From the NCBI GenBank assembly GCA_036504735.1, contig DASXUQ010000017.1, forward strand, positions 33,349 to 97,348: a DNA stretch of 64,000 bases, given 5' to 3'. This document shows, one piece after another, positions 19,181-33,454 of the stretch (the stretch's first letter is position 1; each line of letters opens with the position of its first letter). The notes below the pieces were generated by a model. That model did no database searches. It saw nothing but the letters and a program-made list of their open reading frames with translations, and was not told the origin of the DNA. The position numbers and the translations under genes were made by a program. Source of the DNA: a bacterium (GTDB lineage: Bacteria > Electryoneota > RPQS01).

Positions 19181-19199
19181 TCCCGATGTGCACTACTCT

Positions 19200-21917
19200 A
19201 TGACGAACGATTTCTCTTTTATCGGCAATGCGGAACCTTCGGTCATTGAAGGGTTCTACGAAGACTACCTGAAGGATCCGGCATCCGTCGACGTAAGCTG
19301 GCGCTCTTTCTTCGAGGGCTTTGACTTTGCGCGCCGCACCTTCGGCGACGGCATCGCACAGGCGCCGGAGATGTTCGTCAAAGAGTCCCGCGTGCTGAGC
19401 CTCATCGGCGCCTACCGCACGCGCGGCCATCTGTTCACGCGGACCAATCCGGTGCGCACCCGCCGCAAGTATGAGGATCCGCTGACGCTGGAGAGCTTCG
19501 GCCTCGCCAAGAGTGATCTGGGCACCGTCTTTCAGGCCGGACGTGAAGTGGGCCTTGGCCCCGCGCCGCTGAGCGAAATCGTGGCGCTGCTGGAGCAGAC
19601 CTACTGCCGCAGTGTCGCCGTGGAATTCCGCTACATGCGGGATCCCAAAGTCGTGAGCTGGCTGCAAACCCGCATGGAGTCCTGCCGCAACACGCCGAAC
19701 TTCAGCCATGAAGAGCGGCTGCATATTATCGAGAAGCTTACCGAAGCGGAGGTCTTCGAGAAGTTCATGCACACGCGTTTCGTCGGGCAGAAGCGGTTTT
19801 CGATTGAAGGCGTGGAATCTGTTGTCCCGGCCATTGACGCGATTGTCGAAAAGGGCGCGGACCTCGGCATCGAAGAGTTTATTATCGGCATGGCGCACCG
19901 CGGGCGGTTGAATATTCTGGCCACCATTCTGGACAAAAGCTTCGCCCGAATCTTCGCCGAGTTCGAAGGCAAGGGCTACACGCTGTCCGAATACGCGGGC
20001 GATGTCAAATACCATCTCGGGCACAGTTGCGAAAAACTGACCCGCGGCGGCAAACGCGTACGGCTCAGCGTGGCGCCGAATCCGTCCCATCTTGAAGCCG
20101 TAGACCCCGTGGCTGAAGGCATCGTGCGCGCCCGTCTCGATCAGGAATATCGCGGCGACGTACGGCGCATAGCGCCCATCCTGATTCACGGCGACGCCTC
20201 GCTGGCGGGGCAGGGAATTGTCTATGAAGTGTTGCAGATGTCACAGCTCGACGGCTACGGCACCGGCGGCACCATTCACATTGCCCTGAATAATCAGGTC
20301 GGCTTTACCACCAACTATCTGGATGGCCGCTCCAGCACCTACTGCACGGACGTTGCCAAGGTCACACTCTCTCCGGTCTTTCATGTCAACGGCGACGACG
20401 TCGAAGCGGTGGTGTATGTCATCAACCTCGCCCTCGAATTCCGCGAGGCCTTCAAGCGCGACGTCTTTGTGGACCTGCTCGGCTACCGCCGCTACGGCCA
20501 CAATGAAGGCGATGAGCCGCGCTTCACGCAGCCCATCCTCTACAAGACCATCGCCCAGCATCCGCACCCGATTGAAATCTACGCCAACCAACTGGCCGAG
20601 TCCGGCGCGCTGGACATCAGCGTTTCGCAGAAGCTCGACGAAGAATTTCGCGTCTATCTGGATCAGCAGTATCAGGCTTCGAAGGACCTGACGCTCGTTC
20701 CCGATACGACCTTTCTGGCCAGCACATGGAAGCCGTACCGCACCGCCACGCACGCCGACTTTCAACAATCGCCCGAGACCGGCGTCGAGCTGAAGGATCT
20801 GAAGCGGATCGCCGAACGCATGAACACGCTCCCTGAAGGGCCGAAGTTCTTCGCCAAAATTCAGAAGATCTTCGATGAGCGCCAGCGGATGATCACTGAA
20901 AACCGTCTTGACTGGGCGTTGGGTGAACTTCTCGCCTACGCTACGCTGGTGGCGGGCGGTGTGCCCGTGCGCATTACCGGGCAGGATACCGAGCGCGGCA
21001 CCTTTTCCCATCGACATGCCGTGGTGAAGATCGAGGACTCGGAAGAAGAATATATTCCGCTGGAAAACGTCAGCGAGAAGCAGGCCAGTTTCCGCATCTA
21101 CAACTCGCCGCTCTCCGAATACGGTGTGCTGGGTTTCGAATACGGCTATGCCCTTGCGCTGCCGCGCGGCCTGACCGTCTGGGAAGCGCAATACGGTGAC
21201 TTCGCCAGTGGCGCGCAGACCATCACCGATGAGATGATCTCCAGCGGCGAAACCAAGTGGCAGCAGATGAACGGCCTCGTGCTCTTTTTGCCGCACGGTT
21301 ATGAAGGCCAGGGGCCGGATCACTCCTCGGCGCGCATGGAACGCTACCTCTCGCTCTGCGCCGATGACAACATGCAGGTCGTGAACATCACCACGCCCGC
21401 CAATATGTTTCACGTGCTCCGCCGCCAGGTCTACCGCCCCTTCCGCAAACCCTTGGTGGTGATGACTCCCAAGAGCCTGCTCCGCCATCCGCAAGCCGTC
21501 AGCCCGCTGGAAGATTTCGCCGTGGGCACGCGCTTTCAGGAACTGCTGGACGACGTCACCGCGGATCCCGCCGCTGTCAAGCGCGTGCTGATGTGTTCCG
21601 GCAAGATCTACTATGAACTTGTGGACAGGCAGCAGAAGCTGAACCGCAACGATGTCGCCATAGTGCGCATCGAACAGCTTTATCCCCTGCCGGAAGACCA
21701 GATCCAGGCCACTGTCAACCGATACAAGTATGCTCGCGAGTATTTTTACGTTCAGGAAGAGCCTGAAAACATGGGTGCCGGGCCGTTCATGCATGACTAC
21801 CTGAATGTGCCGTCCCTGAAAATCATCGCCCGCCGCCGCTCAAGCACCACGGCCACCGGATTCCCCGCGCAGCATGTTGCAGAGCAGCAGGCCATTCTGG
21901 AAAAGGCATTTGCATAG
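19200..21917 (+). CDS. sucA: 2-oxoglutarate dehydrogenase E1 component
   Basis: N-terminal FIGNAEPSVIEGFYEDYLKDPASVD..WRSFFEGF and a ~905-aa length typical of E1o. ATG 19200 is preferred over GTG 19188. Confidence 0.9.
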   Translation: MTNDFSFIGNAEPSVIEGFYEDYLKDPASVDVSWRSFFEGFDFARRTFGDGIAQAPEMFVKESRVLSLIGAYRTRGHLFTRTNPVRTRRKYEDPLTLESFGLAKSDLGTVFQAGREVGLGPAPLSEIVALLEQTYCRSVAVEFRYMRDPKVVSWLQTRMESCRNTPNFSHEERLHIIEKLTEAEVFEKFMHTRFVGQKRFSIEGVESVVPAIDAIVEKGADLGIEEFIIGMAHRGRLNILATILDKSFARIFAEFEGKGYTLSEYAGDVKYHLGHSCEKLTRGGKRVRLSVAPNPSHLEAVDPVAEGIVRARLDQEYRGDVRRIAPILIHGDASLAGQGIVYEVLQMSQLDGYGTGGTIHIALNNQVGFTTNYLDGRSSTYCTDVAKVTLSPVFHVNGDDVEAVVYVINLALEFREAFKRDVFVDLLGYRRYGHNEGDEPRFTQPILYKTIAQHPHPIEIYANQLAESGALDISVSQKLDEEFRVYLDQQYQASKDLTLVPDTTFLASTWKPYRTATHADFQQSPETGVELKDLKRIAERMNTLPEGPKFFAKIQKIFDERQRMITENRLDWALGELLAYATLVAGGVPVRITGQDTERGTFSHRHAVVKIEDSEEEYIPLENVSEKQASFRIYNSPLSEYGVLGFEYGYALALPRGLTVWEAQYGDFASGAQTITDEMISSGETKWQQMNGLVLFLPHGYEGQGPDHSSARMERYLSLCADDNMQVVNITTPANMFHVLRRQVYRPFRKPLVVMTPKSLLRHPQAVSPLEDFAVGTRFQELLDDVTADPAAVKRVLMCSGKIYYELVDRQQKLNRNDVAIVRIEQLYPLPEDQIQATVNRYKYAREYFYVQEEPENMGAGPFMHDYLNVPSLKIIARRRSSTTATGFPAQHVAEQQAILEKAFA

Positions 21918-21929
21918 CGCCGGATACGT

Positions 21930-21967
21930 TTGTCATCCTGCATTTGAAGACAAATGCAGGATGACAA
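21930..21967. other. 17-bp perfect stem-loop between sucA and sucB
   Basis: ttgtcatcctgcatttg-aaga-caaatgcaggatgacaa. Confidence 0.7.
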
Positions 21968-22021
21968 CTAAGTGTCTGTTTCTCACGATGAGTTTAGAAC
22001 ATCACCACAACGGACATACAC

Positions 22022-23182
22022 ATGATCGTTGAAGTCCACATACCCAGTCCCGGCGAATCCGTCAATGAAGTTACGCTCTCCAGTTGGCTGAAGAAGAGCG
22101 GCGACATTGTGCGCAGGGATGAAGAACTGTTCGAAGTGGAATCGGAAAAGGCGACGCTCTCCGTCGCCGCCTCCGACGCAGGCAAGCTGGAAATCCTTGT
22201 GCCCGAAGGCGAGACCGTAAAGGTCGGCGCGGTAGCGGCAAAGATTGATACCAGCGTCGCCGCGCCCGCAGGCGGTGCCGAACCGCCCAAGCCGCAATCC
22301 GGCAGCGCTCCCACTCCGAAGCAGGCCGAGAGCGGCAGGAAATCTTCTGCACCCACTCCGGTTGCCGCAGCCGCCGCGCCCAAGCCCGCGCCCAAACGCG
22401 AGGCCGCCTCGCCACCTGTTGCCACGGGCAATGGCAGCCCGCCGCCACCGGTTGAACATGAGCCGGTGATCGTTGAAGGAGAGCGTGGTATTCGCCGCCA
22501 GAAGCTTTCTGCGTTGCGCCTTAAGGTCGCCGAGCGGCTGGTCGCCGCCAAGAACCAGACCGCCATGCTCACCACCTTCAATGAAGTGGACATGAGCGCC
22601 ATCATGGCCGCGCGCGCCAAGTACAAGGAGCAGTTCCAGAAGGAATACAATGTGTCTTTGGGCTTCATGTCCTTCTTCGTAAAGGCAGTCTGTGAAGCCT
22701 TAAAGGATTCCCCGCCGATCAATGCCATGATCGAAGGCGAGGAGATCGTCTATCATGATTACGTGGACATGGGCATCGCCGTCAGTGCGCCGCGCGGTTT
22801 GGTGGTTCCCGTCATCCGCAACGCGCAGTCCCTGACCTCGGCCCAAATCGAAGCCGAGATCGCCCGCCTCGCCGACCGCGCCCGCCGCAATCAACTGACC
22901 CTCGATGAGATGACCGGCGGCACGTTTACCATTTCCAACGGCGGAGTGTTCGGTTCGCTGCTGTCGACGCCGATTTTGAATCCTCCGCAGAGCGGCATCC
23001 TTGGAATGCACAATATCGTCAAGCGCCCGGTCGTCGTGGATGATCAGATCGTGATCCGTCCCATGATGTATCTGGCCTTCTCCTATGACCATCGCATCAT
23101 TGATGGCCGCGAGTCCGTCACCTTCCTCGTCCGCGTCAAACAATTGTTGGAAGACCCGATGCGGCTGCTGCTGGAAGTGTAA
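22022..23182 (+). CDS. sucB: dihydrolipoyllysine-residue succinyltransferase (E2o)
   Basis: N-terminal lipoyl domain, a P/A-rich linker, and a catalytic domain ending in [13 protein letters not shown]. Confidence 0.9.
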
Positions 23183-23204
23183 GCGCCAAACACAGCAAAA
23201 TACA

Positions 23205-23234
23205 AAACGGCTCAGGAGTACTCCTGAGCCGTTT
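23205..23234 (+). terminator. intrinsic terminator after sucB
   Basis: AAACGGCTCAGGAG-TA-CTCCTGAGCCGTTT palindrome with a T-rich tail. Confidence 0.8.
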
Positions 23235-23280
23235 CCGTTTCTCGCGGGAACGGGGTCTGTCCCCATCCCCCAACAAATAC

Positions 23281-23307
23281 TAGCCAGCACGCTCCCGCGT
23301 GCTGGAT
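23281..23307. repeat. palindromic element, family 2, second copy
   Basis: TAGCCAGCACGCTCCCGCGTGCTGGAT. See 19154-19180. Confidence 0.7.
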
Positions 23308-23431
23308 GCCTTGGTGGTCGCGGCCCTCGGGCTGACGGCCGGAGGCCGCCGCTAGGGTTCATCTCGGAAGGGACCGCGCGTTCTCCACATAAAACTCCTA
23401 AGACGCCGAGCAGGCGACCCGGGTGCAGGCG

Positions 23432-24766
23432 TCACGTCTGCTGCGCCATTTCTCTTTCCATCTGTTCCGCTTCCGAAATCGTGCCGTGCAATTTGCGAAG
23501 CACCAGCATCAGCACCGCAAAGGCGGCCAGAGATGCAACCACGAGGATCAGGAAGAACGTGCTATGGTCCATCCTATCCCAGAAGCCGCCAATGAGCCCC
23601 GCCAGATAGCTTCCCAGCGCCGTGAAGGCGAACCACGTTCCCATCAGCATGCCCGCCATGCGCGGCGGCGCCAGCCGCGACACCAGCGACAGCCCCATGG
23701 GTGACAGCAGAATTTCCGCCACCGTAATCACCCCGTACGTACCCACCAGCCAGCCCACGCCCACCCGGCCATGGTCGCCCCCCGACCATCCCGCCAGTGT
23801 CATCACTCCGTAGGCCGCCGCCGTCAGCAGCATGCCCAGCGCAATTTTCGTCGCCGTTGCGGGCTCCTTGCCGATCTTCCGCAACCGGTTCCAGAACCAC
23901 ACTAAAAGCGGCGTGAGCAGCAGAATGAACACCGGATTCACCGACTGGAAGATCTCCGGCGAGATCGTCGTTTCGGTGTTGTCACGCGCCCAGAAGGTCA
24001 GCGTGAAGCCGTTCTGCTCAAAGACCATCCAGAACACCACCACCACGGCAAAGATCGTCAGCAGGGCCACGATGCGGTCCTTCTCCTGCCGTTTCGTCAG
24101 TTGCACCGCTTTTCCCGTAGGCTGATTGGCCCGCTCTGCGGCGCTGATCTCCCCGCTGGCTACCGTCTTGCGGAAAATCGTAAACACCGCCAGCGCGATA
24201 ATCATTCCCACACCCGCCGCGCCGAACGCATAATGCCAGCCGAAGTTGTTCCGCAGATAGGAGGCCACCAGCGGCGAGAAAAACGCTCCCAGATTGATGC
24301 CCATGTAAAAAATATTGTAGGCGTCATCGCGTTTCTCCGGCATGTCGCGGTACAGGTTGCCCAGAATCGTCGAGACATTCGGCTTGAACATCCCATTGCC
24401 CGCGATCAGAAACGCCAACCCTGAAAAGAAGAATGTCAGCGGCGTAAACGCCAGGCACAGATGCCCGATGCCCATCAGCACACCGCCGATCAGAATCGCC
24501 TTGCGGAAGCCCAGATAGCGGTCCGCCAGCCAGCCGCCGATCAGCGGCGTGAAGTACACCAGGCCGATGTACGCGCCGTAAATCTGGCCGATGGTGCCCG
24601 TGCTGAAATGCAGACTCTCATCCATGTAAAGAGCAAGAATGGACAACATGCAGTAAAAACTGAATCGTTCCCACATTTCCGTGAAGAACAGCACCGCAAG
24701 GCCGGGGTGGTGCCGGCGGCGCACTGCAACCGCAGGAGGGGCAATGGTCATTAGAGGCATCCGCAA
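23432..24766 (-). CDS. POT/PTR2-family proton-dependent oligopeptide transporter
   Basis: FFTEMWERFSFYCMLSILALYM signature near the N-terminus, in a ~14-TM MFS-like protein. Confidence 0.8.
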   Translation of the reverse strand: MRMPLMTIAPPAVAVRRRHHPGLAVLFFTEMWERFSFYCMLSILALYMDESLHFSTGTIGQIYGAYIGLVYFTPLIGGWLADRYLGFRKAILIGGVLMGIGHLCLAFTPLTFFFSGLAFLIAGNGMFKPNVSTILGNLYRDMPEKRDDAYNIFYMGINLGAFFSPLVASYLRNNFGWHYAFGAAGVGMIIALAVFTIFRKTVASGEISAAERANQPTGKAVQLTKRQEKDRIVALLTIFAVVVVFWMVFEQNGFTLTFWARDNTETTISPEIFQSVNPVFILLLTPLLVWFWNRLRKIGKEPATATKIALGMLLTAAAYGVMTLAGWSGGDHGRVGVGWLVGTYGVITVAEILLSPMGLSLVSRLAPPRMAGMLMGTWFAFTALGSYLAGLIGGFWDRMDHSTFFLILVVASLAAFAVLMLVLRKLHGTISEAEQMEREMAQQT

Positions 24767-25260
24767 ATGATGAGGTTTTGAAACAGGACAAAATACGTCC
24801 TTGAATCTATGAAGTCAAGTGACCAAGGCGATAAACTATACTTCATATACCCCTTATCGGAGCAAGGGCGCAACGATATGCTGTAGCATCTGTGCTCATC
24901 GGCCTTCGCTGACCGCGATTCTCCTGGGAGCGTAACTCTTTACCGACGAAAGGAAACCTTCGGTATTTTTTGCACAAAGTGGCCGATTCACAACCTCTCC
25001 GGCACCGCAATTTGCAAGGGTCGTCAGAACCCCGATCCTCCCTCCCCCGGCTAAGTGCTTGTTGCTTGGCGGAGTACAAACCATTTTCTCAACTGTCATA
25101 ACCCGCAGGCCGATAATGTGAGTAGCTGGAGTGGAATTTGGTAAACCGCATTGCGCACTCAATGTGGTTTGCTCGCACCTATTTCTGCGGGATCCGGCAT
25201 CATCGGTGTGGTATGGCCGGAAACTGCGTAACCCCCAAACAACATTACGGGAGGCAAAGA

Positions 25261-25737
25261 ATGAAATCGTATGCAGCATTCTTGACGAGCATTGTATTGA
25301 TCTTTGGTTGCGTCGGGCTGGTCACAGCCTCCAACACATCCAATCATCAAGTGACCGTACACGTAGATGCGATTAATGAAGCGGCGGTAACCGGTGGTGA
25401 TATTACTCTCACCATTAATGCCGCCACTGCAGGTTCGCAGCCGAATAACGCGACGGACGCCACGTGTCATCTGAACTGGACCACCAACGAAGCGGGTAAG
25501 AAGATCACCGTCGAGACCGATCAGGCCGCCCCGGTGTACACGCTCAAGGTGACCGCCACGGCGATCAGCGGCGGCACCGCTGCCGCCCAGGTGACCGTCA
25601 GCAATGTCGCGCAGGACTTCGTCACCGCCGTGGCCACCACGATTGGAACCTGTACTCTGAGCTATGTGGCCTCGGCCACCGCCGCGCAGGGAACGGGTGA
25701 GGATGTCCACGTGGTCACCTATACCCTGACCAACTAA
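25261..25737 (+). CDS. small secreted protein, pilin-like paralogue 1 (hypothetical)
   Basis: Signal peptide MKSYAAFLTSIVLIFGCVGLVTA, a T/A/V-rich beta-type sequence and two Cys. Paralogous to 25766-26227 through ATAG.QP, TC.L.WTT, KKIT and GTCTL.Y.ASATAA.GTG. Confidence 0.6.
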   Translation: MKSYAAFLTSIVLIFGCVGLVTASNTSNHQVTVHVDAINEAAVTGGDITLTINAATAGSQPNNATDATCHLNWTTNEAGKKITVETDQAAPVYTLKVTATAISGGTAAAQVTVSNVAQDFVTAVATTIGTCTLSYVASATAAQGTGEDVHVVTYTLTN

Positions 25738-25765
25738 ACTTGAGGACGGAAGCGGATACCCAGCG

Positions 25766-26227
25766 ATGAAGATCGCCTTCCATAGCGTTTCCGTGCTGAC
25801 CGCTATTCTGCTCTTGACCGCCGTGGTTCGAGGAGCCGACCTTGCCGTGTTAAACGGTGACGTCGAGCTAACGGTCTCTTCGGCCACGGCGGGACAGCAA
25901 CCCATTGCGGCAACCAGCGAAACCTGTCAGCTCCAGTGGACGACACTGGTGGCCGACGCCACGAAGAAAATTACCGCGCAATCCAGCCTGGCCACTCCCA
26001 GCTTTGTGCTGACTGTGAACGCGGTAAGTATTTCCGCCGGGGATGGAACGGCGGCTGGACCTGTCACACTGAGCACTTCGGCCGGGGATTTGATTGTCAA
26101 CATCCCGGCCGGAGTGCTGGTGTCGGACCCCGGAACCTGTACTCTGCGCTATACGGCCTCTGCCACTGCTGCGAACGGCACCGGATCGGACAGCCATACA
26201 ATTACTTTTACAATCGTCGATCAGTAG
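25766..26227 (+). CDS. small secreted protein, pilin-like paralogue 2 (hypothetical)
   Basis: Signal peptide MKIAFHSVSVLTAILLLTAVVRGA, with the same conserved blocks and Cys pair as paralogue 1. Confidence 0.6.
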   Translation: MKIAFHSVSVLTAILLLTAVVRGADLAVLNGDVELTVSSATAGQQPIAATSETCQLQWTTLVADATKKITAQSSLATPSFVLTVNAVSISAGDGTAAGPVTLSTSAGDLIVNIPAGVLVSDPGTCTLRYTASATAANGTGSDSHTITFTIVDQ

Positions 26228-26357
26228 GAGCACGGTGTACATGCGACGGCTACAAACTGCATTAAGTGTGGGAAACCAGACGTCCCCATTCGTCCTCCCT
26301 CTGACAAGGGGGTTCTGCTCTCGTCTCCTTCCCCTGCTTCAGGGGGGGAAGGCCGGG

Positions 26358-27179
26358 GTGGGGGTGGGGGAAGGCGGACGGGGGTGGCTTTTTAGCTTTT
26401 TGGCTTTTTGGCTTTTAAGCTTTTGCCTTCCCGCTTCCGCCGGCGTCGTCATCGGCTCGCTGACTCTGGAGCGGGAAGCGCGGGCGGGTGAGACCTATCA
26501 GGGTTCGGTGGTGATGACCAACAATGAGGACACTCCGCAGGATGTTATCATCTACCAAACCGATTACCTGTTTGCCAGCGACGGCAGCAACCAGTACGGC
26601 AAACCCGGAACACACACGCGCTCCAATGCCAATTGGATTACCTTCAGTCCCCGGCAACTTCAGGTTCCGCCGCACCAGAGTTCACAGGTCAGTTATGTGG
26701 TGCATGTTCCTGTGGATAGCGCGCTGACCGGCACCTACTGGAGCATGATCATGGTGGAGGAAGTGCCGCCGCCGCTGCCCGACAGCATGCTGCAACTGGC
26801 GCGCAACGTCGCCGCCGTGCGGCAGGTCATGCGCTATGGAGTGCAGTGCGTCACCCACATCGGCGAGAGCGGCGCGACCAAAGTCACCGTAACCGGCGCA
26901 CGGCTGGAAGAACTGGAAAACCACAAGCGCGAACTGCAGGTCGATGTCGAAAACACCGGCGAGCGCTGGATCGTCCCCGCCGCGTGGATGGAACTGTATG
27001 ATACCGAAGGCCGCTATGTAGGCCGCTTCGAAACATCGAAGAAACGAATCTTCCCCGGGACGTCGGTCCGCTTCCACATCGAGTTGGACGGAACCTTTTC
27101 CGGGAGATATAAGGCGCTGGTGGTGCTGGACAACGGCGACCAGAGCGTCTTTGGCGCGAAATACAATTTGGAATTCTAA
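26358..27179 (+). CDS. secreted two-domain beta-sandwich-like protein, chaperone-like (hypothetical); start uncertain
   Basis: Hydrophobic leader WLFSFLAFWLLSFCLPASA, followed by Ig-like strand patterns (ETYQGSVVMTNNEDTPQDVIIYQTDYLF.., QVSYVVHVPVD). Candidate starts are ATG 26241 and GTG 26358/26364. Confidence 0.5.
   Translation: MGVGEGGRGWLFSFLAFWLLSFCLPASAGVVIGSLTLEREARAGETYQGSVVMTNNEDTPQDVIIYQTDYLFASDGSNQYGKPGTHTRSNANWITFSPRQLQVPPHQSSQVSYVVHVPVDSALTGTYWSMIMVEEVPPPLPDSMLQLARNVAAVRQVMRYGVQCVTHIGESGATKVTVTGARLEELENHKRELQVDVENTGERWIVPAAWMELYDTEGRYVGRFETSKKRIFPGTSVRFHIELDGTFSGRYKALVVLDNGDQSVFGAKYNLEF
26387..26426 (+). repeat. five tandem 8-nt units GCTTTTTR inside the leader-coding region
   Basis: gcttttta gctttttg gctttttg gcttttaa gcttttgc, read directly from the sequence. 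Confidence 0.85.
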
Positions 27180-27187
27180 GTGTGTTG

Positions 27188-29968
27188 ATGCGACGGCCTT
27201 ATCTGATTGCGTATCTTCTGCTGCTGATCTCCGCCGCGGTGTGCCAGGCACAACCGCCTGCGGTGTCCGCAGCAGATTCCGCGCGTCTGGAGATCGTCGC
27301 TCCCAAGCTCCTCACCCGGGCTTTTGTCGTATCCAATCCTTCGGAAAACCGCCGCAAACTGATCGAACAGCTTGAACTGCCCGAAGGCTGGCGCACCGTG
27401 GCGCAGGACAACTCCTTCACTCTGCTGCCCGGCGCACAGGATGTGCGCCTCGTTGCGATCTCGGTTCCCCTTAGCGCGCTGCCCGGTCCCTACAAGGTCA
27501 CCTACATGGCGCAGGACAGCGCCGATGCAACTCAAAGCGCGCAGGCCCAAACCGAAGTGCTCGTGCTGCCGGTCTTTAAACTGGAAATTGCCACACGTGA
27601 GACGCCGCGCCGCGTGATTGCCGGTCAAGACTACACCGTACAATTTGCGGTTACCAGCCGCTGCAATTCGCCCACTCCGGTCTCTGCCGTACTGACCGGC
27701 AGCGGCGGCTCAACCTTCGTGCTCAGTGACAGCGTCTGGCTGGCAAACCCCGGCGAATGCAAGTTGCTCACGGCCGTCGTGCGAACCGATCCCCGCTGCA
27801 CCGCCGCGTTCACACAGCGTCTGACCCTTAAGCTGAGAATCTCCGATCATGAAGCCCGGCAGCGGGAATCCACCGCGCATTCGTTCGTGGACGTGATTCC
27901 CCGTGGCACGCCTGCGGGAGATTTCTACCATCGAGTGCCGTCTCTGATTGCCGCCCGGTTTGTCAGCGAAGCGGGACGCAGTGGATTTCAGGTGGAGTAT
28001 TCGGGCAATGGCTCGCTCGATTCCCGCGGCGCCACACGCATCGGCTATCTGCTTCGCGGGCCGCGCGACCTTACGCAGCACACCTACGGCCTGCAGGATG
28101 AGTATTATGTCTCGGTGGAAAACCGTATCGGCGAGGCGCGGGCCGGAGATCTGTCGTTCAATCTGTCGCCGTTGATGGAGCAGAACCGCATGGGCCGCGG
28201 CGCCCGCGCGCGTGTCAGCAATGGCCCGTTCACCGCCGGCGGCTATGCCTTCCGCATGCGGCCCAAGTATGCGGATCTGCAGGAATCCGCCGGATTCATC
28301 GGTTTTTGTCCCAGCCCGCGCCTGAGCATCTATGCAAATTACCTGCAAAAATCCTCCCGCGCACTCAATGGGCAACTGCTGGGGCTGTCCTCGAGCATTT
28401 CGCCTGTTCGCGGCATGAATCTCGATCTGGATTTCAGCGCCGACGCCGCCGCATCGAAAAGTGTGAGCCCGCAGAACAGCGCCCTCTTCGCGCGCTTCAA
28501 TGGCGGCCTTGGCGGTCTGCGCTTGTCCTTCGAGCGAGTCTATGCCGGACGCGATTTCTCCGGATACTATCACGATGAAAACCACTCGGCTCTGTCCGTG
28601 TCTTTCCCGGTGGCTCCCGGAATGCAGTACCATGCGTCCTACCGCTCTGTCGCGCAGAACCTGAGCCGGGATACCCTCCGCGCGACCGCGCTGCGCGAGG
28701 CCGATGTTCAGTCGGGCATCAGCGCCACCTTGCCCCTCCGCATCGCCGCGAGCCTTGACGTCGAGAAGCTCACGCGCACCGATGAATTGCAGCGCACCGA
28801 TCTGGATTATGACGAACGCGCCGCCACGATGCGGCTGCGCCAATCTTTCGGAGTGGTGTCGCTGACCGGCTCCGCCAAGCGCGGCCTGTGGAACAACCAC
28901 CGGCTCAGCCTCTCGGGTGACGTCGAGCGCTACGGTCTTGGCGTCACTTTCGCGCCGGATAAGCGCCAGACTTACAGCGCAGGCTTCCAGACGGGAAATT
29001 CCAGCGTGGGCAGTGGCGGGCATCGCAGCCGCTCGCTCAATCTTGCCTCCACGCTATGCCTTGCGAACCGGCTGACCTTCAGCGCCAACTTCCAGACCAC
29101 AGGCTTCGACGATCCGGCGGCATTCCAGAATGACCAGTTCTCGGCGGAACTGCGCTGCGAAACCTTCCGGCGGCAGGCAATTACACTGCGCGCCCGCAAG
29201 GTCAACTATGGGCCAACCGGCATCCGCGACGGCTTCTCCTGCATGGCGGGCTATGAGATTCCCATCGGCGTCCCGGTAAGCAGGCAGAACGATGTCGGCT
29301 GTCTCAGAGGCAAGGTTTTCGATTCGGAAGATCCCAAACAGAAGGGCGTGGCCAATATCGTGCTGATCCTCGACGGCCTCACCGCCATCAGCGACAGCCG
29401 GGGATACTATGCGTTCCCCTCCGTCAAGCCCGGCGTACATTACCTTCAGGTGGATCATGCCAGCATGGGCTTGCACCGCATTACCACCCAGCCCGTACCG
29501 GTGGAACTCAAGGTGCGCGGCGGGAAGACGGAAATGCTGAACATCGGTATCGAACGCGCCGGGTCCGTCAATGGCCGGATGACGCTGCTTTCCAAGGGAG
29601 GAAACAGTGCCCGCGGCTACCTCCTCGAAGCCGATAGCGCCGCTTCCTCCAAGGCCGAGCCCACCCTGCAGGTCGCAACGGGTCTGGCCAATGTCGAGGT
29701 CCTGCTCTACCGTGACGGCGAATCTTTCCGCGCCGCCAGTGACCGCGACGGCAATTTCGCCTTTACCGGCCTGCGCCCCGGCCGCTGGCTGCTGAAAGTC
29801 ACCCCGGAAAGCCTGCCGGCCTTCCACCAGCCCGAACGCAGCAACTACGAGGTCTTCGTCCAACCCGGCAACCCCGAAGACCTGACCGTCCGCGTCATTC
29901 CCCGTACCCGCTCTCTGATCATCGTGGACCAAGGCACCGTTCCCATCACCACCTCTTCCCGCAAATAG
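27188..29968 (+). CDS. large secreted protein: N-terminal Ig-like domains, central beta-barrel-like region, two C-terminal carboxypeptidase-regulatory-like domains (hypothetical, usher-like)
   Basis: Signal peptide MRRPYLIAYLLLLISAAVCQA. The central ~470 aa have amphipathic strands ending in aromatics (LSIYANY, LSFERVY, MQYHASY, LTFSANF). The C-terminus has GKVFDSED..GYYAFPSVKPGVHYLQV and VLLYRDG..DGNFAFTGLRPGRWLLKV. Confidence 0.6.
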   Translation: MRRPYLIAYLLLLISAAVCQAQPPAVSAADSARLEIVAPKLLTRAFVVSNPSENRRKLIEQLELPEGWRTVAQDNSFTLLPGAQDVRLVAISVPLSALPGPYKVTYMAQDSADATQSAQAQTEVLVLPVFKLEIATRETPRRVIAGQDYTVQFAVTSRCNSPTPVSAVLTGSGGSTFVLSDSVWLANPGECKLLTAVVRTDPRCTAAFTQRLTLKLRISDHEARQRESTAHSFVDVIPRGTPAGDFYHRVPSLIAARFVSEAGRSGFQVEYSGNGSLDSRGATRIGYLLRGPRDLTQHTYGLQDEYYVSVENRIGEARAGDLSFNLSPLMEQNRMGRGARARVSNGPFTAGGYAFRMRPKYADLQESAGFIGFCPSPRLSIYANYLQKSSRALNGQLLGLSSSISPVRGMNLDLDFSADAAASKSVSPQNSALFARFNGGLGGLRLSFERVYAGRDFSGYYHDENHSALSVSFPVAPGMQYHASYRSVAQNLSRDTLRATALREADVQSGISATLPLRIAASLDVEKLTRTDELQRTDLDYDERAATMRLRQSFGVVSLTGSAKRGLWNNHRLSLSGDVERYGLGVTFAPDKRQTYSAGFQTGNSSVGSGGHRSRSLNLASTLCLANRLTFSANFQTTGFDDPAAFQNDQFSAELRCETFRRQAITLRARKVNYGPTGIRDGFSCMAGYEIPIGVPVSRQNDVGCLRGKVFDSEDPKQKGVANIVLILDGLTAISDSRGYYAFPSVKPGVHYLQVDHASMGLHRITTQPVPVELKVRGGKTEMLNIGIERAGSVNGRMTLLSKGGNSARGYLLEADSAASSKAEPTLQVATGLANVEVLLYRDGESFRAASDRDGNFAFTGLRPGRWLLKVTPESLPAFHQPERSNYEVFVQPGNPEDLTVRVIPRTRSLIIVDQGTVPITTSSRK

Positions 29969-30021: not shown

Positions 30022-30230
30022 AGCCGGATCGCGTGTCCACATCGACCATGTACACAACCCGGCCGAAACCCCGTGTCACTGCCTATTGTACATAAATTCA
30101 AATGACTGCGCACTTCTCCCTCGTGACTTCTACCGAATTTATCCGTAAATTATGGTCCGATCTGCAACTTTTCCCTCCGGAATCGCTCCTACTTGTAATA
30201 CCTTTTTCCCTAACACGTTCGAGGATGTGC

Positions 30231-32945
30231 ATGAAGAGTCTCTCCTGGGTTGTGGCCGCTGTGCTGATCTTCGCACTGGCCGCCGCCGCGCCTGCCGCCA
30301 AGCTTCCCGAATTGAAGTTTGTCAAGGACACCCTGTCCAACGGCCTGCAGGTCATCTACTATGAAGACCACACGCTCCCCACGGTGGCCATCAACACCTG
30401 GTACCACGTCGGTTCCAAAAACGAAAAGCCGGGCAAAACCGGATTCGCGCACCTCTTCGAGCATCTGATGTTCGAAGGCTCCGAGCATCGTGCCGGCGAT
30501 TTCAGCTTCGAAAAAGTCGGTGGCTCGGACAATGCCTCGACCAGCGAAGACCGCACCAACTACTTCGAAGTCATTCCGTCCAACTATCTCGAGTATGCGC
30601 TGTGGATGGAATCCGACCGCCTGGGATTCCTGCCTCCGGCCATCACGCAGGAGAAGCTCGATATCCAGCGCGACGTCGTCAAGAATGAACGCCGCCAGCG
30701 CATGGACAACCAGCCCTATGCCAAGGCCGAAGAACTGCTGTTGACGGCGATCTATCCGCCCAGCCATCCCTATTCCTGGCCCGTTGTCGGCAGCATGGAA
30801 GATCTTTCCCGTGCCAGCCTCGATGACGTCAAGGACTTTTTCCATACCTACTACACACCGAACAATGCGTCGCTGATTATCGGCGGCGATTTTGACCTTG
30901 CCGCCACGCGCAAGCTCGTCGACAAGTATTTCGGATCGATTCCCGCCGGACCGCCCATTGACCGTACGACCGGATGGATTCCGCAGATTGACGGCGTCAA
31001 GCGCGTCACCGCCGAAGACCGCGTCAACCTTCCCCGCTACCACTGCGCGTGGACCAGCCCCGCCAACTTCAAGCCGGGCGATGCCGAACTCGACATGCTC
31101 TCCAGCGTCCTCGCCGCCGGCAAGACCTCGCGCCTCTACAAGGCTCTCGTCTACGACAAGCAGATCGCGCAGGACGTCAGCGTCTATCAGTCCAGCAATG
31201 AACTGAACGGCACCTTCGACGTCGAAATCACCGCCAAGCCCGGACACAGCCTCGAAGAGATCGAAGCCGCCTCCGATGCGATCCTGAAGGACGTCATCGA
31301 GAAGGGCATCACCGCCGAAGAACTGCAGAATGCCAAGAACGGCTATGAGACCCAGTTCATTCGCCGCCTGCAGCGCATTGGCAGCTACTACAGCATTACC
31401 GACATCGCCAATGAGTACAACACGTACCTCGGCGATCCGAACAAGTTCCAGTGGGATCTCGACCGCCACATGAATCTCACTCCCGCGGACCTTCAGCGCG
31501 TGGCCCGGCAGGTGCTGGATTTCAACCGCCGCGTCATCGTCAATATCGTTCCGCAAGGTGACTTCAAAGCCGCGACGGACGAGCTTGACCGCTCCAAAGC
31601 TCCCGCCGCCGCTGCGGAACCGTCCTTCGCTCCGCCGCCCATCCAGACGGCCACGCTCTCCAACGGTCTGAAGCTCTATCTGGTTGAGAAGCACACTCTG
31701 CCCCTCGTGCAGGCCAATATCGTCATCAAGGCCGGCTGGGCCGACGATCCCAATGGCAAGCTCACCAGCGCCCGCCTCACCGCCGAACTGCTCGATGACG
31801 GCACCACCACTCGCAACGCGCTGCAGATTTCCGAAGATGCCAAGAAGATCGGCGCCACGATGGGATCGTCCAGCAGCATGGATGGCTCGTTCGTCAGCCT
31901 GAACGTGCTCAAGAAGAACCTCGATCAGGGTCTTTCGCAGATGACCGACGTGCTGCTTCATCCCAATTTCCCCAAGGAAGAACTGGAGCGCCAGCGCAAG
32001 ACCTATCTGGCCCGCCTGCTGCAGGAAAAGAAGGAGCCGATGTCTCTGGCCAGCAAGGCCTACGCCAAACTGCTCTACGGCGCGGATCATCCCTATGCCC
32101 AGACCGGTTCCGGCACCGAAGCATCGCTGAATTCGATTACCCGCGAAGACCTCGTCGCCTTCTACCAGACCAACTACGTGCCCAACAACGCCGCGGTCGT
32201 GGTCGTCGGTGACATTACCATGGCCGAAGCCAAGGACAAATTCGAAAAGGCTCTGAAAGACTGGAAGCCCGGCAAAGCCAACGTACGCGAGATTCCCGAG
32301 CCGCAGGCTCTGACCTCCACCAAAATCGTTCTGGTGGACAAGCCGCGCGCTCCGCAGAGCGTTGTGATCGTCGGCAATCCCGGCATCAAGCGTTCGGATC
32401 CCGATTACGTGGCCTGTGACGTCGTAAACAACGCTCTCGGCGGCACATTCGGCAGCCGTTTGAACACCAACCTGCGCGAGCAGAAGGGCTACACCTACGG
32501 TGTGCATTCGCAGTTCGCCGCCCGTCGCGGCACCGGCCCGTTCCTTGCCAGTGCGATGGTCAAGACTGACGTCACCGACAAGTCCGTGACCGAGTTCATC
32601 AAAGAACTGCGCGACATCACCGTCTCGCGGCCGCTCTCCGATGAGGAACTCACGGCGAGCAAGGACAATCTCATCAAGGGCTATCCGCAGGATTTCGAAA
32701 CCTTCAATGCCCTCGCCGGACAGCTCAACAGCATTTTCCTCTACAATCTCCCCGCCGATGAATGGACCTCGTACGTCGGCAAGGTGAAGACGGTGTCCTC
32801 GGATGTGGCCTCCGGCATTGCCAAGAAGCACATCCATCCCGACAACCTGCTGATCGTCGTCATCGGCGACCGTCAGAAGGTTGAAACGGAATTGAAGAAT
32901 CTCAAGCTGGGTGACGTCACCGTCCTCAAGCCCGAAGACCTGTAA
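30231..32945 (+). CDS. M16 (pitrilysin/insulinase) family zinc peptidase, fused double unit
   Basis: HLFEHLMFEGSEH (HxxEH) in the first half, a second M16-like half, and signal peptide MKSLSWVVAAVLIFALAAAAPA. Confidence 0.85.
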   Translation: MKSLSWVVAAVLIFALAAAAPAAKLPELKFVKDTLSNGLQVIYYEDHTLPTVAINTWYHVGSKNEKPGKTGFAHLFEHLMFEGSEHRAGDFSFEKVGGSDNASTSEDRTNYFEVIPSNYLEYALWMESDRLGFLPPAITQEKLDIQRDVVKNERRQRMDNQPYAKAEELLLTAIYPPSHPYSWPVVGSMEDLSRASLDDVKDFFHTYYTPNNASLIIGGDFDLAATRKLVDKYFGSIPAGPPIDRTTGWIPQIDGVKRVTAEDRVNLPRYHCAWTSPANFKPGDAELDMLSSVLAAGKTSRLYKALVYDKQIAQDVSVYQSSNELNGTFDVEITAKPGHSLEEIEAASDAILKDVIEKGITAEELQNAKNGYETQFIRRLQRIGSYYSITDIANEYNTYLGDPNKFQWDLDRHMNLTPADLQRVARQVLDFNRRVIVNIVPQGDFKAATDELDRSKAPAAAAEPSFAPPPIQTATLSNGLKLYLVEKHTLPLVQANIVIKAGWADDPNGKLTSARLTAELLDDGTTTRNALQISEDAKKIGATMGSSSSMDGSFVSLNVLKKNLDQGLSQMTDVLLHPNFPKEELERQRKTYLARLLQEKKEPMSLASKAYAKLLYGADHPYAQTGSGTEASLNSITREDLVAFYQTNYVPNNAAVVVVGDITMAEAKDKFEKALKDWKPGKANVREIPEPQALTSTKIVLVDKPRAPQSVVIVGNPGIKRSDPDYVACDVVNNALGGTFGSRLNTNLREQKGYTYGVHSQFAARRGTGPFLASAMVKTDVTDKSVTEFIKELRDITVSRPLSDEELTASKDNLIKGYPQDFETFNALAGQLNSIFLYNLPADEWTSYVGKVKTVSSDVASGIAKKHIHPDNLLIVVIGDRQKVETELKNLKLGDVTVLKPEDL

Positions 32946-33040: not shown

Positions 33041-33454
33041 TTACCGGCGGTTCATTTCCGCCGTCTGCAGGGTCAACTCCCTGTCCATTCCGCCGATATG
33101 GTCAATCAGCCAGTCGCATAGCATGGTCTGCAGCTTCAGACAGACGGTCTCGGAGGTGCCTTCACTCTTCACGAACTCGTCTTTTAGGGCGAAGTATTGG
33201 CGCACAAAGTCCGCATGGGCGGCGTGGTGCGCTTCGAAGTTCGGCATGTGCTGCGCTTTCATGAAGCGCTCCTCGTTGCCGAAATGCTTCAACACGTAGT
33301 CTTCAAGAAACGAAAAAATGTCGCCGAGTGACGACGTCCCCGGTTCTTTCATTATCGCATCCAGCAGCACATTGACGCGGTTGAACAACTCCTGGTGCTG
33401 GATATCCTGCCATTCCAGCCCTGTCGAGAGCCGCGGATTCCATACTAAGCTCAT
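33041..33454 (-). CDS. hemerythrin-like metal-binding protein
   Basis: WNPRLSTGLEWQDIQHQELF..HFGNEERFM..HHAAHADF..DWLIDHIGGMD. Confidence 0.85.
   Translation of the reverse strand: MSLVWNPRLSTGLEWQDIQHQELFNRVNVLLDAIMKEPGTSSLGDIFSFLEDYVLKHFGNEERFMKAQHMPNFEAHHAAHADFVRQYFALKDEFVKSEGTSETVCLKLQTMLCDWLIDHIGGMDRELTLQTAEMNRR

What the first reader, a model, noticed from the sequence alone, without database searches (positions are those of the whole stretch)
25261..29968. Four-gene secreted cluster resembling a non-canonical chaperone-usher-like surface-fibre pathway
These are tightly linked plus-strand genes, all with signal peptides.
- **Two ~155-aa paralogues:** rich in T/A/V/S beta-strand sequence, with a conserved Cys pair and conserved blocks (ATAG.QP, TC.L.WTT, KKIT, GTCTL.Y.ASATAA.GTG..H..T.T). 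Their mature N-termini have alternating hydrophobics (HQVTVHVDAI / DLAVLNGDVELTV) of the kind used as donor strands by pilins.
- **A ~270-aa protein:** two beta-sandwich-like halves.
- **A 926-aa protein, 8 nt downstream:** two Ig-like N-terminal domains, a ~470-aa region with outer-membrane-barrel-like amphipathic strands, and two carboxypeptidase-regulatory-like domains.

The composition parallels the subunit, chaperone and usher logic, but none of the proteins shows motifs of the classical families that I can recognise.
Basis: inference. Interest (0 to 1): 0.7.

Follow-up and report, generated by a model that had tools for sequence, protein, structure and literature searches.

The report
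Divergent chaperone-usher-like pilus gene cluster
Four adjacent genes most likely build a surface fibre the way chaperone-usher pili are built, but with proteins so divergent that no database labels them, and the same cluster occurs in hundreds of mostly uncultured bacterial species from many phyla.

Summary

- **Genes:** A (25261-25737) and B (25766-26227) are 47% identical secreted paralogues. C (26358-27179) is a 273-aa two-domain protein. D (27188-29968) is a 926-aa protein that starts 8 nt after C.
- **Subunit A:** the AlphaFold2 model (pLDDT 90.7) best matches chaperone-usher pilins (CfaB, Caf1, FimA) and other donor-strand polymers.
- **Usher-like D:** the model (pLDDT 90.6) has two N-terminal Ig-like domains, about 26 long transmembrane-type strands and two C-terminal beta-sandwiches. 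Its best PDB matches are the FimD and PapC ushers (E=1.9e-14).
- **Chaperone candidate C:** it is a remote homologue of the Gram-positive WxL-interacting protein (DUF916/DUF3324), not detectably of PapD.
- **Conservation:** the order small subunit(s), C, D holds in about 80 fetched loci from more than ten diderm lineages. D's family has 2081 clusters at 50% identity.
- **Donor strand:** A-type subunits carry a conserved 15-residue N-terminal extension. The last small gene before C always lacks it, as expected of a distal tip subunit.
- **Sequence level:** no classical usher, PapD or fimbrial model matches.

Polymerisation by donor-strand exchange is inferred, not shown.

The parts
25250..25254 (+). 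Shine-Dalgarno-like GGAGG upstream of gene A
   Evidence: Read directly from the sequence; 6 nt before the ATG at 25261.
25261..25737 (+). Gene A: 158-aa secreted pilin-like subunit, the type that carries the N-terminal extension. Probable major polymerising subunit.
   Evidence: ORF. AF2 pLDDT 90.7. Foldseek top hits are CfaB, Caf1, the PapG pilin domain, FimA, CsuA/B and cannulae. More than 120 close homologues, with no Pfam family.
25261..25329 (+). Signal peptide of A (aa 1-23, cleavage after VTA)
   Evidence: By inspection. Helix at residues 3-16 with low pLDDT in the AF2 model.
25330..25374 (+). N-terminal extension of A (aa 24-38, SNTSNHQVTVHVDAI): candidate donor strand with alternating hydrophobic residues
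   Evidence: Absent from B in the A/B alignment. H29, V31, T32, V33, V35 and I38 are at least 90% conserved in 119 sequences. Not assigned as a strand of the monomer core by DSSP. Present in the upstream subunit genes and absent from the last small gene in 69 of 76 loci.
25766..26227 (+). Gene B: 153-aa paralogue of A that lacks the N-terminal extension. Probable distal tip or initiator subunit.
   Evidence: 47% identity to A, with the alignment starting at A residue 40. In other loci its position next to C is held by B-type or E-type small proteins, which also lack the extension.
26358..27179 (+). Gene C: 273-aa secreted protein of two beta-sandwich domains, WxLIP (DUF916/DUF3324)-like, with no C-terminal membrane helix. 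Probable periplasmic chaperone.
   Evidence: 647 homologues, some named 'P pilus assembly chaperone PapD' by JGI. Profile against PDB EfmWxLIP1 gives E=7.6e-4. hhalign against six WxLIPs gives 71% probability, E=3.7e-5, 218 columns. Sub-threshold Pfam hits to WxLIP_PGBD (8 of 30 members) and WxLIP_HBD (2 of 30).
27188..29968 (+). Gene D: 926-aa usher-like outer-membrane protein
   Evidence: AF2 pLDDT 90.6, pTM 0.69. Foldseek top hits are FimD 3rfz_E at E=1.9e-14 over 798 columns, and PapC. The family has 2081 clusters at E<=1e-3.
27260..27898 (+). D residues 25-237: two tandem Ig-like (CARDB/NPCBM_assoc, ASH/MSP-like) domains, probably periplasmic
   Evidence: Pfam NPCBM_assoc. Homologues hit Ig_VWA7, FixG_C, HYDIN-like Ig, Motile_Sperm and weakly PapD_N. 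The two domains are related to each other (hhalign 95%) and to domain 1 of C (88%).
27926..29284 (+). D residues 247-699: about 26 long antiparallel strands, a large outer-membrane beta-barrel with no inserted plug domain
   Evidence: DSSP of the AF2 model. Amphipathic alternation in the 42-sequence alignment. Pfam Porin_4 above its cut-off in the L036 homologue and in 9 of 42 homologues, and BBP2 in another. Foldseek hits to the FimD and PapC pore domains, LptD and AlgE.
29297..29596 (+). D residues 704-803: first C-terminal transthyretin-like (CarboxypepD_reg) beta-sandwich
   Evidence: Pfam CarbopepD_reg_2 and CarboxypepD_reg; AF2.
29666..29902 (+). D residues 827-905: second C-terminal CarboxypepD_reg beta-sandwich, after a disordered linker at 806-821
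   Evidence: Pfam CarboxypepD_reg E=1.3e-12; AF2. Bacteroidota and Ignavibacteria homologues add a peptidoglycan-binding SPOR domain after it, which places this end in the periplasm.

Best explanation
The four genes most likely form one operon for a divergent pilus or surface-fibre assembly system that works like the chaperone-usher pathway.

1. A and B are exported by Sec as pilin-like Ig-fold subunits.
2. In the periplasm, the two-domain protein C binds each subunit and probably completes its fold with one of its own strands. This is what has been predicted for its Gram-positive homologue WxLIP acting on WxL proteins.
3. C:subunit complexes dock on the periplasmic Ig-like domains of D. D is an outer-membrane protein with a barrel of about 26 strands and two periplasmic C-terminal beta-sandwich domains.
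4. B has no N-terminal extension. It would enter first and become the distal tip.
5. A subunits would then add one by one. Each inserts its conserved N-terminal extension (NHxVTVxVxAI) into the previous subunit in place of the chaperone strand, and the growing fibre passes out through the barrel of D.

Shown here: the genes, their conservation and order, the pilin-like fold of A, the usher-like architecture of D, the WxLIP relationship of C, and the presence or absence of the N-terminal extension.

Inferred: chaperone strand donation, donor-strand exchange, polymerisation, extrusion through D, and the final function (adhesion or biofilm fibre).
For: - **Fold of A.** AF2 gives pLDDT 90.7. CU pilins, pilin domains and other donor-strand fibre subunits dominate the Foldseek PDB list: CfaB (three hits at E<=7.3e-4), Caf1, the PapG pilin domain, FimA, FimI, CsuA/B, CupB6 and HdaB, plus cannulae CanA and the Hyper2 tube.
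- **Fold of D.** AF2 gives pLDDT 90.6. Nine of the first ten hits are the FimD usher, plus PapC at rank 10, E=1.9e-14 to 3.6e-11, aligned over about 760-830 columns. These score far better than pore-only ushers, LptD, AlgE or porins (E about 1e-7).
- **Barrel.** Porin_4 and BBP2 Pfam hits in homologues, and a periplasmic SPOR domain at the C-terminus in some lineages.
- **C.** WxLIP homology. JGI gives a PapD (COG) name to several homologues. For WxLIP, AF2 predicts a strand that completes the WxL beta-sandwich (PMC10599100).
- **Co-occurrence.** A D-like gene lies directly after C in 81 of 83 loci, and the two exceptions are contigs that end there. 75 of 76 loci with enough upstream sequence have small subunit genes.
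- **Extension pattern.** 69 of 76 loci have one or more genes with the extension, followed by a last small gene without it next to C. The extension is nearly invariant.
- **Hosts.** All named host lineages are diderm, to my knowledge.
Against: - No sequence-level similarity to the Usher, PapD_N/C or Fimbrial families, even profile against profile. Homology with classical CU systems is therefore unproven, and convergence is possible.
- D shows no inserted plug domain, and has about 26 strands rather than 24.
- Global TM-scores are modest: 0.3-0.5 for A, about 0.3 for D and 0.40-0.44 for the pore alone.
- I could not inspect coordinates. The missing-strand groove in A was not seen, and no multimer prediction was possible.
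- The chaperone candidate resembles WxLIP. WxLIP is described as a surface scaffold for non-polymeric WxL proteins.
- No experimental data exist for any member, and no paper on this cluster was found.
Confidence: 0.72

Rival explanations
1. A surface-display or secretion system without polymerisation. This would be a diderm counterpart of the Gram-positive WxL cluster. C escorts the small Ig-like proteins A and B, and D exports or anchors them as monomeric or oligomeric surface adhesins rather than as a fibre.
For: The only detectable sequence relative of C is WxLIP, which is thought to hold WxL proteins on the cell surface (PMC10599100). The Gram-positive gene order (small WxL, WxLIP, large WxL) parallels S, C, D. 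Polymerisation was not demonstrated here.
Against: The S family shows no similarity to WxL domains and no Pfam WxL hit. The nearest folds of A are polymerising pilins. The conserved N-terminal extension, and its absence from just one subunit per locus, is hard to explain without head-to-tail assembly. D resembles ushers, not anchors.
Confidence: 0.13
2. A substrate-specific uptake complex. D is a large specific porin or transporter with periplasmic accessory domains. A, B and C are surface or periplasmic binding proteins, perhaps for peptides, given the neighbouring POT symporter and M16 peptidase.
For: Porin_4 and BBP2 hits in the central region of D homologues. The window flanks encode an oligopeptide:H+ symporter and an M16 peptidase.
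Against: The flanks are conserved only in the closest relative (L001) and not across the 80 loci. Full-length ushers match D far better than porins do. About 26 strands is much larger than the 16-18 of a porin. The small proteins have pilin-like folds, not binding-protein folds.
Confidence: 0.05
3. An envelope-structural module. D tethers the outer membrane to peptidoglycan, and A, B and C form a periplasmic or outer-membrane-associated lattice rather than an extracellular fibre.
For: A C-terminal SPOR domain in the D homologues of Bacteroidota and Ignavibacteria. WxLIP domain 1 is proposed to bind peptidoglycan.
Against: SPOR occurs only in a subset and is absent from the window's D. The usher-like architecture and pilin-like subunits point to export.
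Confidence: 0.05

Closest known systems
Chaperone-usher pili: classical Fim/Pap, alternate class 5 CFA/I (CfaABCE), Caf1 (F1 antigen), archaic Csu/CupE
   Same: - A compact operon of small secreted Ig-fold subunits, a two-domain periplasmic protein and a protein of about 900 aa.
- That large protein has N-terminal domain(s), a large barrel and two C-terminal beta-sandwich domains.
- The nearest structures to subunit A are CfaB, Caf1 and FimA. The nearest to D are FimD and PapC.
- The major subunits carry an N-terminal extension with alternating hydrophobic residues, and one subunit per locus lacks it, as tip subunits do.
   Different: - No sequence match to Usher (PF00577), PapD_N/C or Fimbrial models, even profile against profile.
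- About 26 strands and no inserted plug domain.
- Two N-terminal Ig-like domains instead of one NTD, and transthyretin-like C-terminal domains.
- The chaperone candidate is WxLIP-like, not detectably PapD-like.
- The tip candidate has a single domain with no lectin domain.
- Hosts are KSB1, Calditrichota, Zixibacteria, Ignavibacteria/Bacteroidota, Planctomycetota, Deltaproteobacteria, Spirochaetes, Nitrospirae, Armatimonadetes and others, rather than mainly Proteobacteria.
WxL clusters of Firmicutes (small WxL protein, WxLIP = DUF916+DUF3324+TM helix, large WxL protein; PMC10599100; PDB 9i1y/9i25 EfmWxLIP1)
   Same: C aligns with both WxLIP domains. The gene order is the same: small secreted protein, then WxLIP-like protein, then large protein. 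WxLIP is predicted to donate a strand that completes the WxL beta-sandwich, which is the chaperone step proposed here.
   Different: C lacks the C-terminal membrane helix. The S proteins are not WxL domains. The large protein is an outer-membrane barrel rather than a WxL- or LPXTG-type wall protein. All matches are below the Pfam thresholds.
Pam pili of Candidate Phyla Radiation bacteria (bioRxiv 10.64898/2026.03.03.709456)
   Same: A recently described donor-strand-exchange pilus outside the classical CU families. It has Ig-like pilins, a single-domain tip pilin and PapD/FimC-like chaperones.
   Different: Pam chaperones are membrane-anchored, and there is no outer-membrane usher, because the hosts lack an outer membrane. 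Its pilins have two domains. No sequence relationship was tested here.
Chaperone-free donor-strand polymers (archaeal cannulae CanA 9h8b, Hyper2 tube 9bab)
   Same: These give the highest TM-scores to the A model (0.44-0.53), and they assemble by donor-strand complementation (abstract of 10.1101/2024.12.30.630787).
   Different: They need no chaperone or usher. Here the subunit genes are always linked to C and D.

Membership tests
Chaperone-usher pathway: usher (Pfam Usher PF00577) | Sequence membership in the usher family | tested here: not met
   D has no Usher hit at E<=1. Usher is not among the families listed for the 42 homologues (25 of 45 shown). hhalign of a 90-sequence D profile gives 0.9% against FimD and 3% against six E. 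coli ushers.
Chaperone-usher pathway: usher | Architecture: periplasmic N-terminal domain, large (24-strand) barrel, two periplasmic C-terminal beta-sandwich domains | tested here: met
   The AF2 model (pLDDT 90.6) has Ig-like domains at 25-237, about 26 strands at 247-699 and beta-sandwiches at 704-803 and 827-905. FimD and PapC are the top Foldseek hits, E=1.9e-14, about 800 aligned columns. The strand count is taken from DSSP, not from coordinates.
Chaperone-usher pathway: usher | Plug domain inserted between barrel strands 6 and 7 | tested here: not met
   No inter-strand insertion longer than about 13 residues in the DSSP of the model.
Chaperone-usher pathway: chaperone (PapD_N PF00345 / PapD_C PF02753) | Sequence membership in the PapD-like chaperone family | tested here: not met
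   C has no PapD_N/C hit, and neither family is among the 25 of 26 families listed for its 30 homologues. hhalign gives 2% against FimC and 14% against seven E. coli chaperones. JGI's COG-based name 'PapD' on some homologues is only a hint.
Chaperone-usher pathway: chaperone | Two Ig-like domains that donate a G1 strand to the subunit | not testable with these tools
   The two-domain beta-sandwich nature follows from homology to WxLIP. Strand donation is predicted for WxLIP in PMC10599100.
Chaperone-usher pathway: pilin subunit | Pilin-type Ig fold | tested here: met
   Foldseek of the A model gives CfaB at E=1.4e-4, then Caf1, the PapG pilin domain, FimA, FimI, FimG, CsuA/B, CupB6 and HdaB. 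No antibody or fibronectin-type domain appears in the top 50. TM-scores are only 0.32-0.50.
Chaperone-usher pathway: pilin subunit | Missing G strand (acceptor groove) complemented by the N-terminal extension of the next subunit | tested here: inconclusive
   Indirect only. The conserved 15-residue extension is not part of the DSSP core and is absent from B- and E-type subunits. No coordinates and no multimer model.
Chaperone-usher pathway: pilin subunit (Pfam Fimbrial PF00419, SCPU PF05229 and others) | Sequence membership in a known pilin family | tested here: not met
   A, B and 10 diverse relatives have no significant Pfam or NCBIfam hit, only a few sub-threshold matches to unrelated families. 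The PDB profile search found no pilin. hhalign against 15 E. coli pilins matches only the signal peptide.
WxL cluster (Firmicutes) | WxLIP: DUF916 (PGBD) plus DUF3324 (HBD) domains | tested here: inconclusive
   Profile of C against PDB EfmWxLIP1 gives E=7.6e-4 over 167 residues. hhalign gives 71% probability, E=3.7e-5, 218 columns across both domains. Pfam WxLIP_PGBD hits 8 of 30 members and WxLIP_HBD 2 of 30, all below the gathering cut-off. This is a remote homologue, not a family member by Pfam's criteria.
WxL cluster (Firmicutes) | C-terminal transmembrane helix on WxLIP | tested here: not met
   C ends about 11 residues after the last aligned column of domain 2 (...GAKYNLEF), with no hydrophobic tail.
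WxL cluster (Firmicutes) | Partner proteins carry a WxL domain (dual Trp-x-Leu motif) | tested here: not met
   hhalign of A-, B- and E-type profiles against six small WxL proteins gives at most 5.5% probability. No Pfam WxL hit.
General porins (Pfam Porin_4) | 16-18-strand trimeric diffusion porin matching Porin_4 | tested here: inconclusive
   9 of 42 D homologues hit Porin_4 (best E=6.7e-10, 39.7 bits against a cut-off of 27, residues 268-541 of the L036 D). The window's D does not. The model has about 26 strands plus four extra domains, so it is barrel-related but not a classical porin.

The most novel reading that the evidence does not exclude
The S-C-D cluster may be a previously unrecognised, ancient and widespread branch of donor-strand-exchange fibre machinery. 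Its chaperone (C) is the soluble diderm counterpart of the membrane-anchored WxLIP of Firmicutes. If so, Gram-positive WxL clusters, and perhaps the Pam pili of CPR bacteria, would be monoderm derivatives of a chaperone-usher-type system or sister lineages to it. Chaperone-usher-like assembly would then not be essentially a proteobacterial invention, but would span most diderm phyla.
Probability: 0.3. Interest if true: 0.9.

Novelty: new variant of a known kind. Interest (0 to 1): 0.78.

Why it matters
Chaperone-usher pili are the textbook model of ATP-independent fibre assembly across the outer membrane. They are known almost only from Proteobacteria and a few other groups, through recognisable usher and PapD families.

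This cluster would show that the same logic runs on proteins no current Pfam or NCBIfam model recognises. The logic is a pilin with an N-terminal donor strand, a periplasmic two-domain escort, and a large gated barrel with periplasmic docking domains.

- **Scale.** It occurs in at least 410 GTDB species, and D's family has about 2000 clusters at 50% identity. The hosts include KSB1, Calditrichota, Zixibacteria, Ignavibacteria/Bacteroidota, Planctomycetota, Nitrospirae and Spirochaetes.
- **Annotation.** It would give a function to three large families of 'hypothetical proteins'.
- **Ecology.** It would provide candidate adhesion and biofilm fibres for many uncultured environmental lineages.
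- **Evolution.** It offers a testable link between Gram-negative CU pili and the poorly understood WxL/WxLIP surface clusters of enterococci, lactobacilli and Listeria.

Tried and rejected
- **Sequence searches of A, B and D.** Pfam, NCBIfam and PDB sequence searches returned nothing informative for A and B. D alone gave nothing in the PDB.
- **Word-indexed search with D.** It found only 3 relatives. That was a limit of the index, not rarity. The exhaustive search later found 2081 clusters.
- **Fused A + D-block profile.** I tuned it locally to recover both families in the last word-indexed search. It returned only S-family proteins.
- **S family against WxL domains.** No similarity.
- **The Limnochorda 198-aa small protein against the S family.** No detectable relationship.
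- **C, D and S profiles against E. coli K-12 chaperones, ushers and pilins.** All negative.
- **Sigma-54 promoter upstream of A.** No canonical match. The GG-N11-GC motif at about 25000-25016 has the wrong spacing.
- **Sigma-70 and terminator scan.** Nothing above chance.
- **RNA structure in the B-C spacer.** z=-0.05.
- **Conserved extra neighbours.** None apart from NtrC-type activators in a minority of loci.
- **Source of the window.** Looking it up through C's protein found no record.
- **Literature.** No description of this cluster was found.
- **A as a lipoprotein (IFGC motif).** Rejected, because the Cys is not conserved in homologues.

Full report
**1. What is in the sequence**

The region holds four plus-strand genes.
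- **A:** 25261-25737, 158 aa, with a GGAGG 6 nt upstream of the start.
- **B:** 25766-26227, 153 aa.
- **C:** 273 aa, starting at 26358 by the database gene call.
- **D:** 926 aa from the ATG at 27188, 8 nt after the stop of C.

The spacers are 28, 130 and 8 nt, which fits one operon. A consensus scan found neither promoters nor terminators above chance. A and B are 47% identical (E=2e-32). All four start with signal-peptide-like sequences, judged by inspection.

The flanks are ordinary: sucA and sucB, a POT peptide symporter, an M16 peptidase and two bacteriohemerythrins. These flanks are shared only with the closest relative, L001.

**2. Is the cluster real and recurrent?**

C has 647 or more relatives in the word-indexed protein database, and JGI names a few of them 'P pilus assembly chaperone PapD'. 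A profile of C found relatives in 410 stretches of the GTDB species-representative genomes. I fetched the best 80 loci.

Local phmmer on six-frame ORFs of these loci gave the following.
- A D-like ORF lies directly downstream of C in 81 of 83 loci. The two exceptions are contigs that end right after C.
- A/B-like genes lie upstream in 71 loci.

Many loci carry a further small gene next to C, which I call E-type, with the motif ITVTGSWSETID..DL..GAGSDL. It is a remote member of the same family (hhalign 94.6%, E=7e-8). Counting it, 75 of the 76 loci with enough upstream sequence have small subunit genes.

The record titles name KSB1, Calditrichota, Zixibacteria, Ignavibacteria/Bacteroidota, Planctomycetota, Deltaproteobacteria/Desulfobacterota, Spirochaetes, Nitrospirae, Armatimonadetes, Verrucomicrobiota, Acetomicrobium, Dictyoglomaceae and Limnochorda. 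To my knowledge all of these are diderm.

The first search with D found only 3 relatives. That was an artefact of the word index. The exhaustive search found 2081 clusters at 50% identity with E<=1e-3, of which 857 have E<=1e-30. Most of the 150 best hits listed match D over nearly its full length.

The only other recurrent neighbour is an NtrC-type sigma-54 activator, in roughly 20-25 loci. The window has none, and no canonical sigma-54 promoter.

**3. The small proteins**

No Pfam, NCBIfam or PDB sequence match exists for A, B or ten diverse relatives.

With a 119-sequence alignment, AlphaFold2 gives a confident model of A (pLDDT 90.7, pTM 0.75). It has seven core strands. Foldseek against the PDB returns a list dominated by subunits that polymerise by donor-strand complementation.
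- CfaB of CFA/I pili (E=1.4e-4 to 7e-4).
- Caf1, the PapG pilin domain, FimA, FimI, FimG, CsuA/B, CupB6 and HdaB.
- Archaeal cannulae (9h8b) and the Hyper2 tube (9bab, TM 0.50/0.53).

Ordinary complete Ig domains are absent from the top 50. TM-scores are modest (0.32-0.53), so this is fold-class similarity and not proof of homology.

A-type subunits have a 15-residue segment after the signal peptide (SNTSNHQVTVHVDAI in A) that B lacks. Six of its positions are at least 90% conserved in 119 sequences. DSSP does not count it among the core strands of the monomer, although residues 33-38 are confidently placed.

Across 76 loci, 69 show one or more genes with this extension, followed by a final B- or E-type gene without it immediately upstream of C. 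In chaperone-usher pili, each subunit's N-terminal extension fills the groove of the subunit assembled before it. The only subunit that can do without one is therefore the distal tip (established knowledge of Fim/Pap systems). The pattern here fits that logic. This is inference: I could not see the groove or run a multimer prediction.

**4. Protein C**

Pfam gives only sub-threshold hits: fn3_5 in 24 of 30 members, WxLIP_PGBD in 8 of 30 and WxLIP_HBD in 2 of 30.
- A profile of C hits the crystal structures of Enterococcus faecium WxLIP1 (9i25_C, 9i1y_A) at E=7.6e-4 over 167 residues.
- I fetched six WxLIP genes from Firmicute plasmids. hhalign of the two profiles gives 71% probability, E=3.7e-5, over 218 columns spanning both domains.

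C is therefore a remote homologue of the DUF916/DUF3324 protein, but without its C-terminal membrane helix.

[quoted passage not shown] That is the chaperone step of donor-strand complementation. The Gram-positive gene order (small WxL, WxLIP, large WxL) also parallels S, C, D.

No similarity to PapD-type chaperones is detectable. The S family is not detectably related to WxL domains.

**5. Protein D**

Sequence tools see only the flanking domains: NPCBM_assoc-type Ig at the N-terminus and two CarboxypepD_reg domains at the C-terminus.

Among 42 homologues, 9 hit Porin_4. The best is 39.7 bits against a cut-off of 27, at residues 268-541 of the L036 protein. One hits BBP2, and the Bacteroidota/Ignavibacteria versions end in a peptidoglycan-binding SPOR domain. 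That places the C-terminus in the periplasm.

Proteins from the exhaustive search were accepted as an alignment for structure prediction. The resulting AF2 model is confident (pLDDT 90.6, pTM 0.69).

| Residues | Feature |
|---|---|
| 25-237 | two Ig-like domains |
| 247-699 | about 26 strands of 7-18 residues, arranged as hairpins |
| 704-803 | beta-sandwich |
| 806-821 | disordered linker |
| 827-905 | beta-sandwich |

The two N-terminal domains are duplicates of each other and are related to domain 1 of C.

Foldseek puts the FimD usher first (3rfz_E, E=1.9e-14, 798 columns). More FimD and PapC complexes follow, down to E about 1e-11. Only then come LptD (4.5e-8), the usher pore domains alone (TM 0.40-0.44 on the target), AlgE and OccK porins (about 1e-6).

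So the whole architecture resembles an usher, not just the barrel. The differences are these.
- No Usher Pfam match, and no profile-profile signal.
- About 26 strands rather than 24.
- No inserted plug domain.
- Two N-terminal domains.

**6. Most likely mechanism**

The steps are marked as shown or inferred.
1. Sec export of all four proteins. The signal peptides are shown by inspection.
2. C binds nascent A and B in the periplasm and completes their fold. This is inferred from WxLIP homology and gene linkage.
3. C:subunit complexes dock on the periplasmic domains of D. This is inferred from the usher-like architecture.
4. B, which lacks the extension, initiates and ends up at the tip. The absence of the extension is shown. 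The role is inferred.
5. A subunits add by exchanging the chaperone strand for the next subunit's N-terminal extension, and the fibre leaves through D's barrel. This is inferred.

My confidence in this reading is about 0.72.

The rivals are as follows.
- **A WxL-like display system without polymerisation (about 0.13).**
- **A specific uptake porin complex (about 0.05).** The flanks are not conserved, and ushers match D far better than porins do.
- **An envelope tether (about 0.05).** SPOR occurs only in a subset.

**7. Comparison with known systems, and novelty**

Functionally and architecturally this is a chaperone-usher-type system. By the sequence definitions of its three protein families it is not a member, since all three tests failed.

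Its chaperone candidate links it to the Gram-positive WxL clusters. A 2026 preprint on CPR 'Pam pili' describes donor-strand pilins with membrane-anchored PapD-like chaperones and no usher. That shows such divergent systems are only now being recognised. I found no paper describing this S-C-D cluster, though the searchable library is incomplete.

I rate it a new variant of a known kind. It is widespread, unannotated and experimentally untouched.

**8. Limits**

- All structural evidence is predicted.
- Foldseek similarity between beta-rich proteins can arise by convergence.
- Signal peptides, operon structure and diderm status are inferred.
- The source organism of the window is unknown. The closest relatives of the cluster are MAGs labelled KSB1, Calditrichota, Eisenbacteria or simply 'bacterium'.

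Noticed in passing
window 1243-5283 and 5676-9926 (+): Two adjacent very large (1346 and 1416 aa) multi-PAS sensor proteins. The second has a complete histidine-kinase C-terminus. No link to the cluster was tested.
   Followed up: partly
window 33041-33454 (-) and 33584-33994 (-): Two tandem bacteriohemerythrin paralogues (137 and 136 aa) about 3 kb downstream of the cluster.
   Followed up: partly
window 19188-24766 and 30102-32945: The flanks are sucA, sucB, a POT oligopeptide:H+ symporter (minus strand) and a tandem M16 peptidase. The POT transporter and M16 peptidase are syntenic only in the closest relative, L001 (sucA/sucB lie outside that contig). They are not conserved in the other loci.
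   Followed up: yes
related loci, e.g. L014:5943-7310, L047:7089-8462, L024:1314-2693, L032:4087-5475(-), L074:3112-4497(-): In roughly 20-25 of about 80 loci, an NtrC-type sigma-54 activator (REC, AAA+, HTH_8) lies 2-5 kb from the subunit genes. That suggests sigma-54 control of the pilin genes in those lineages. The window has none, and no canonical -24/-12 motif.
   Followed up: partly
L032:9155-12190, L045:4754-7804, L050:10751-13732, L065:2178-5171, L074:10769-13837: The D homologues of Bacteroidota and Ignavibacteria carry an extra C-terminal SPOR (peptidoglycan-binding) domain. Other D homologues reach 1100-1380 aa with additional unexamined domains.
   Followed up: partly
L002:8475-12895 (Limnochorda pilosa AP014924.1): A cultured diderm Firmicute has the same small, C-like, D-like arrangement. 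Its C is 28% identical (E=4e-31). Its 198-aa small protein is not detectably related to the S family, though it ends in a similar Tyr/Thr-rich strand.
   Followed up: partly
window 26228-26357: The B-C spacer is G-rich with imperfect inverted repeats. Its predicted RNA folding energy is no better than that of shuffled sequence (z=-0.05).
   Followed up: yes
window 27260-27898 versus 26418-26750: The two N-terminal Ig-like domains of D are duplicates of each other (hhalign 95%). The second is related to the first domain of C (88%). The docking domains of the usher-like protein and the chaperone candidate may therefore share an origin.
   Followed up: partly
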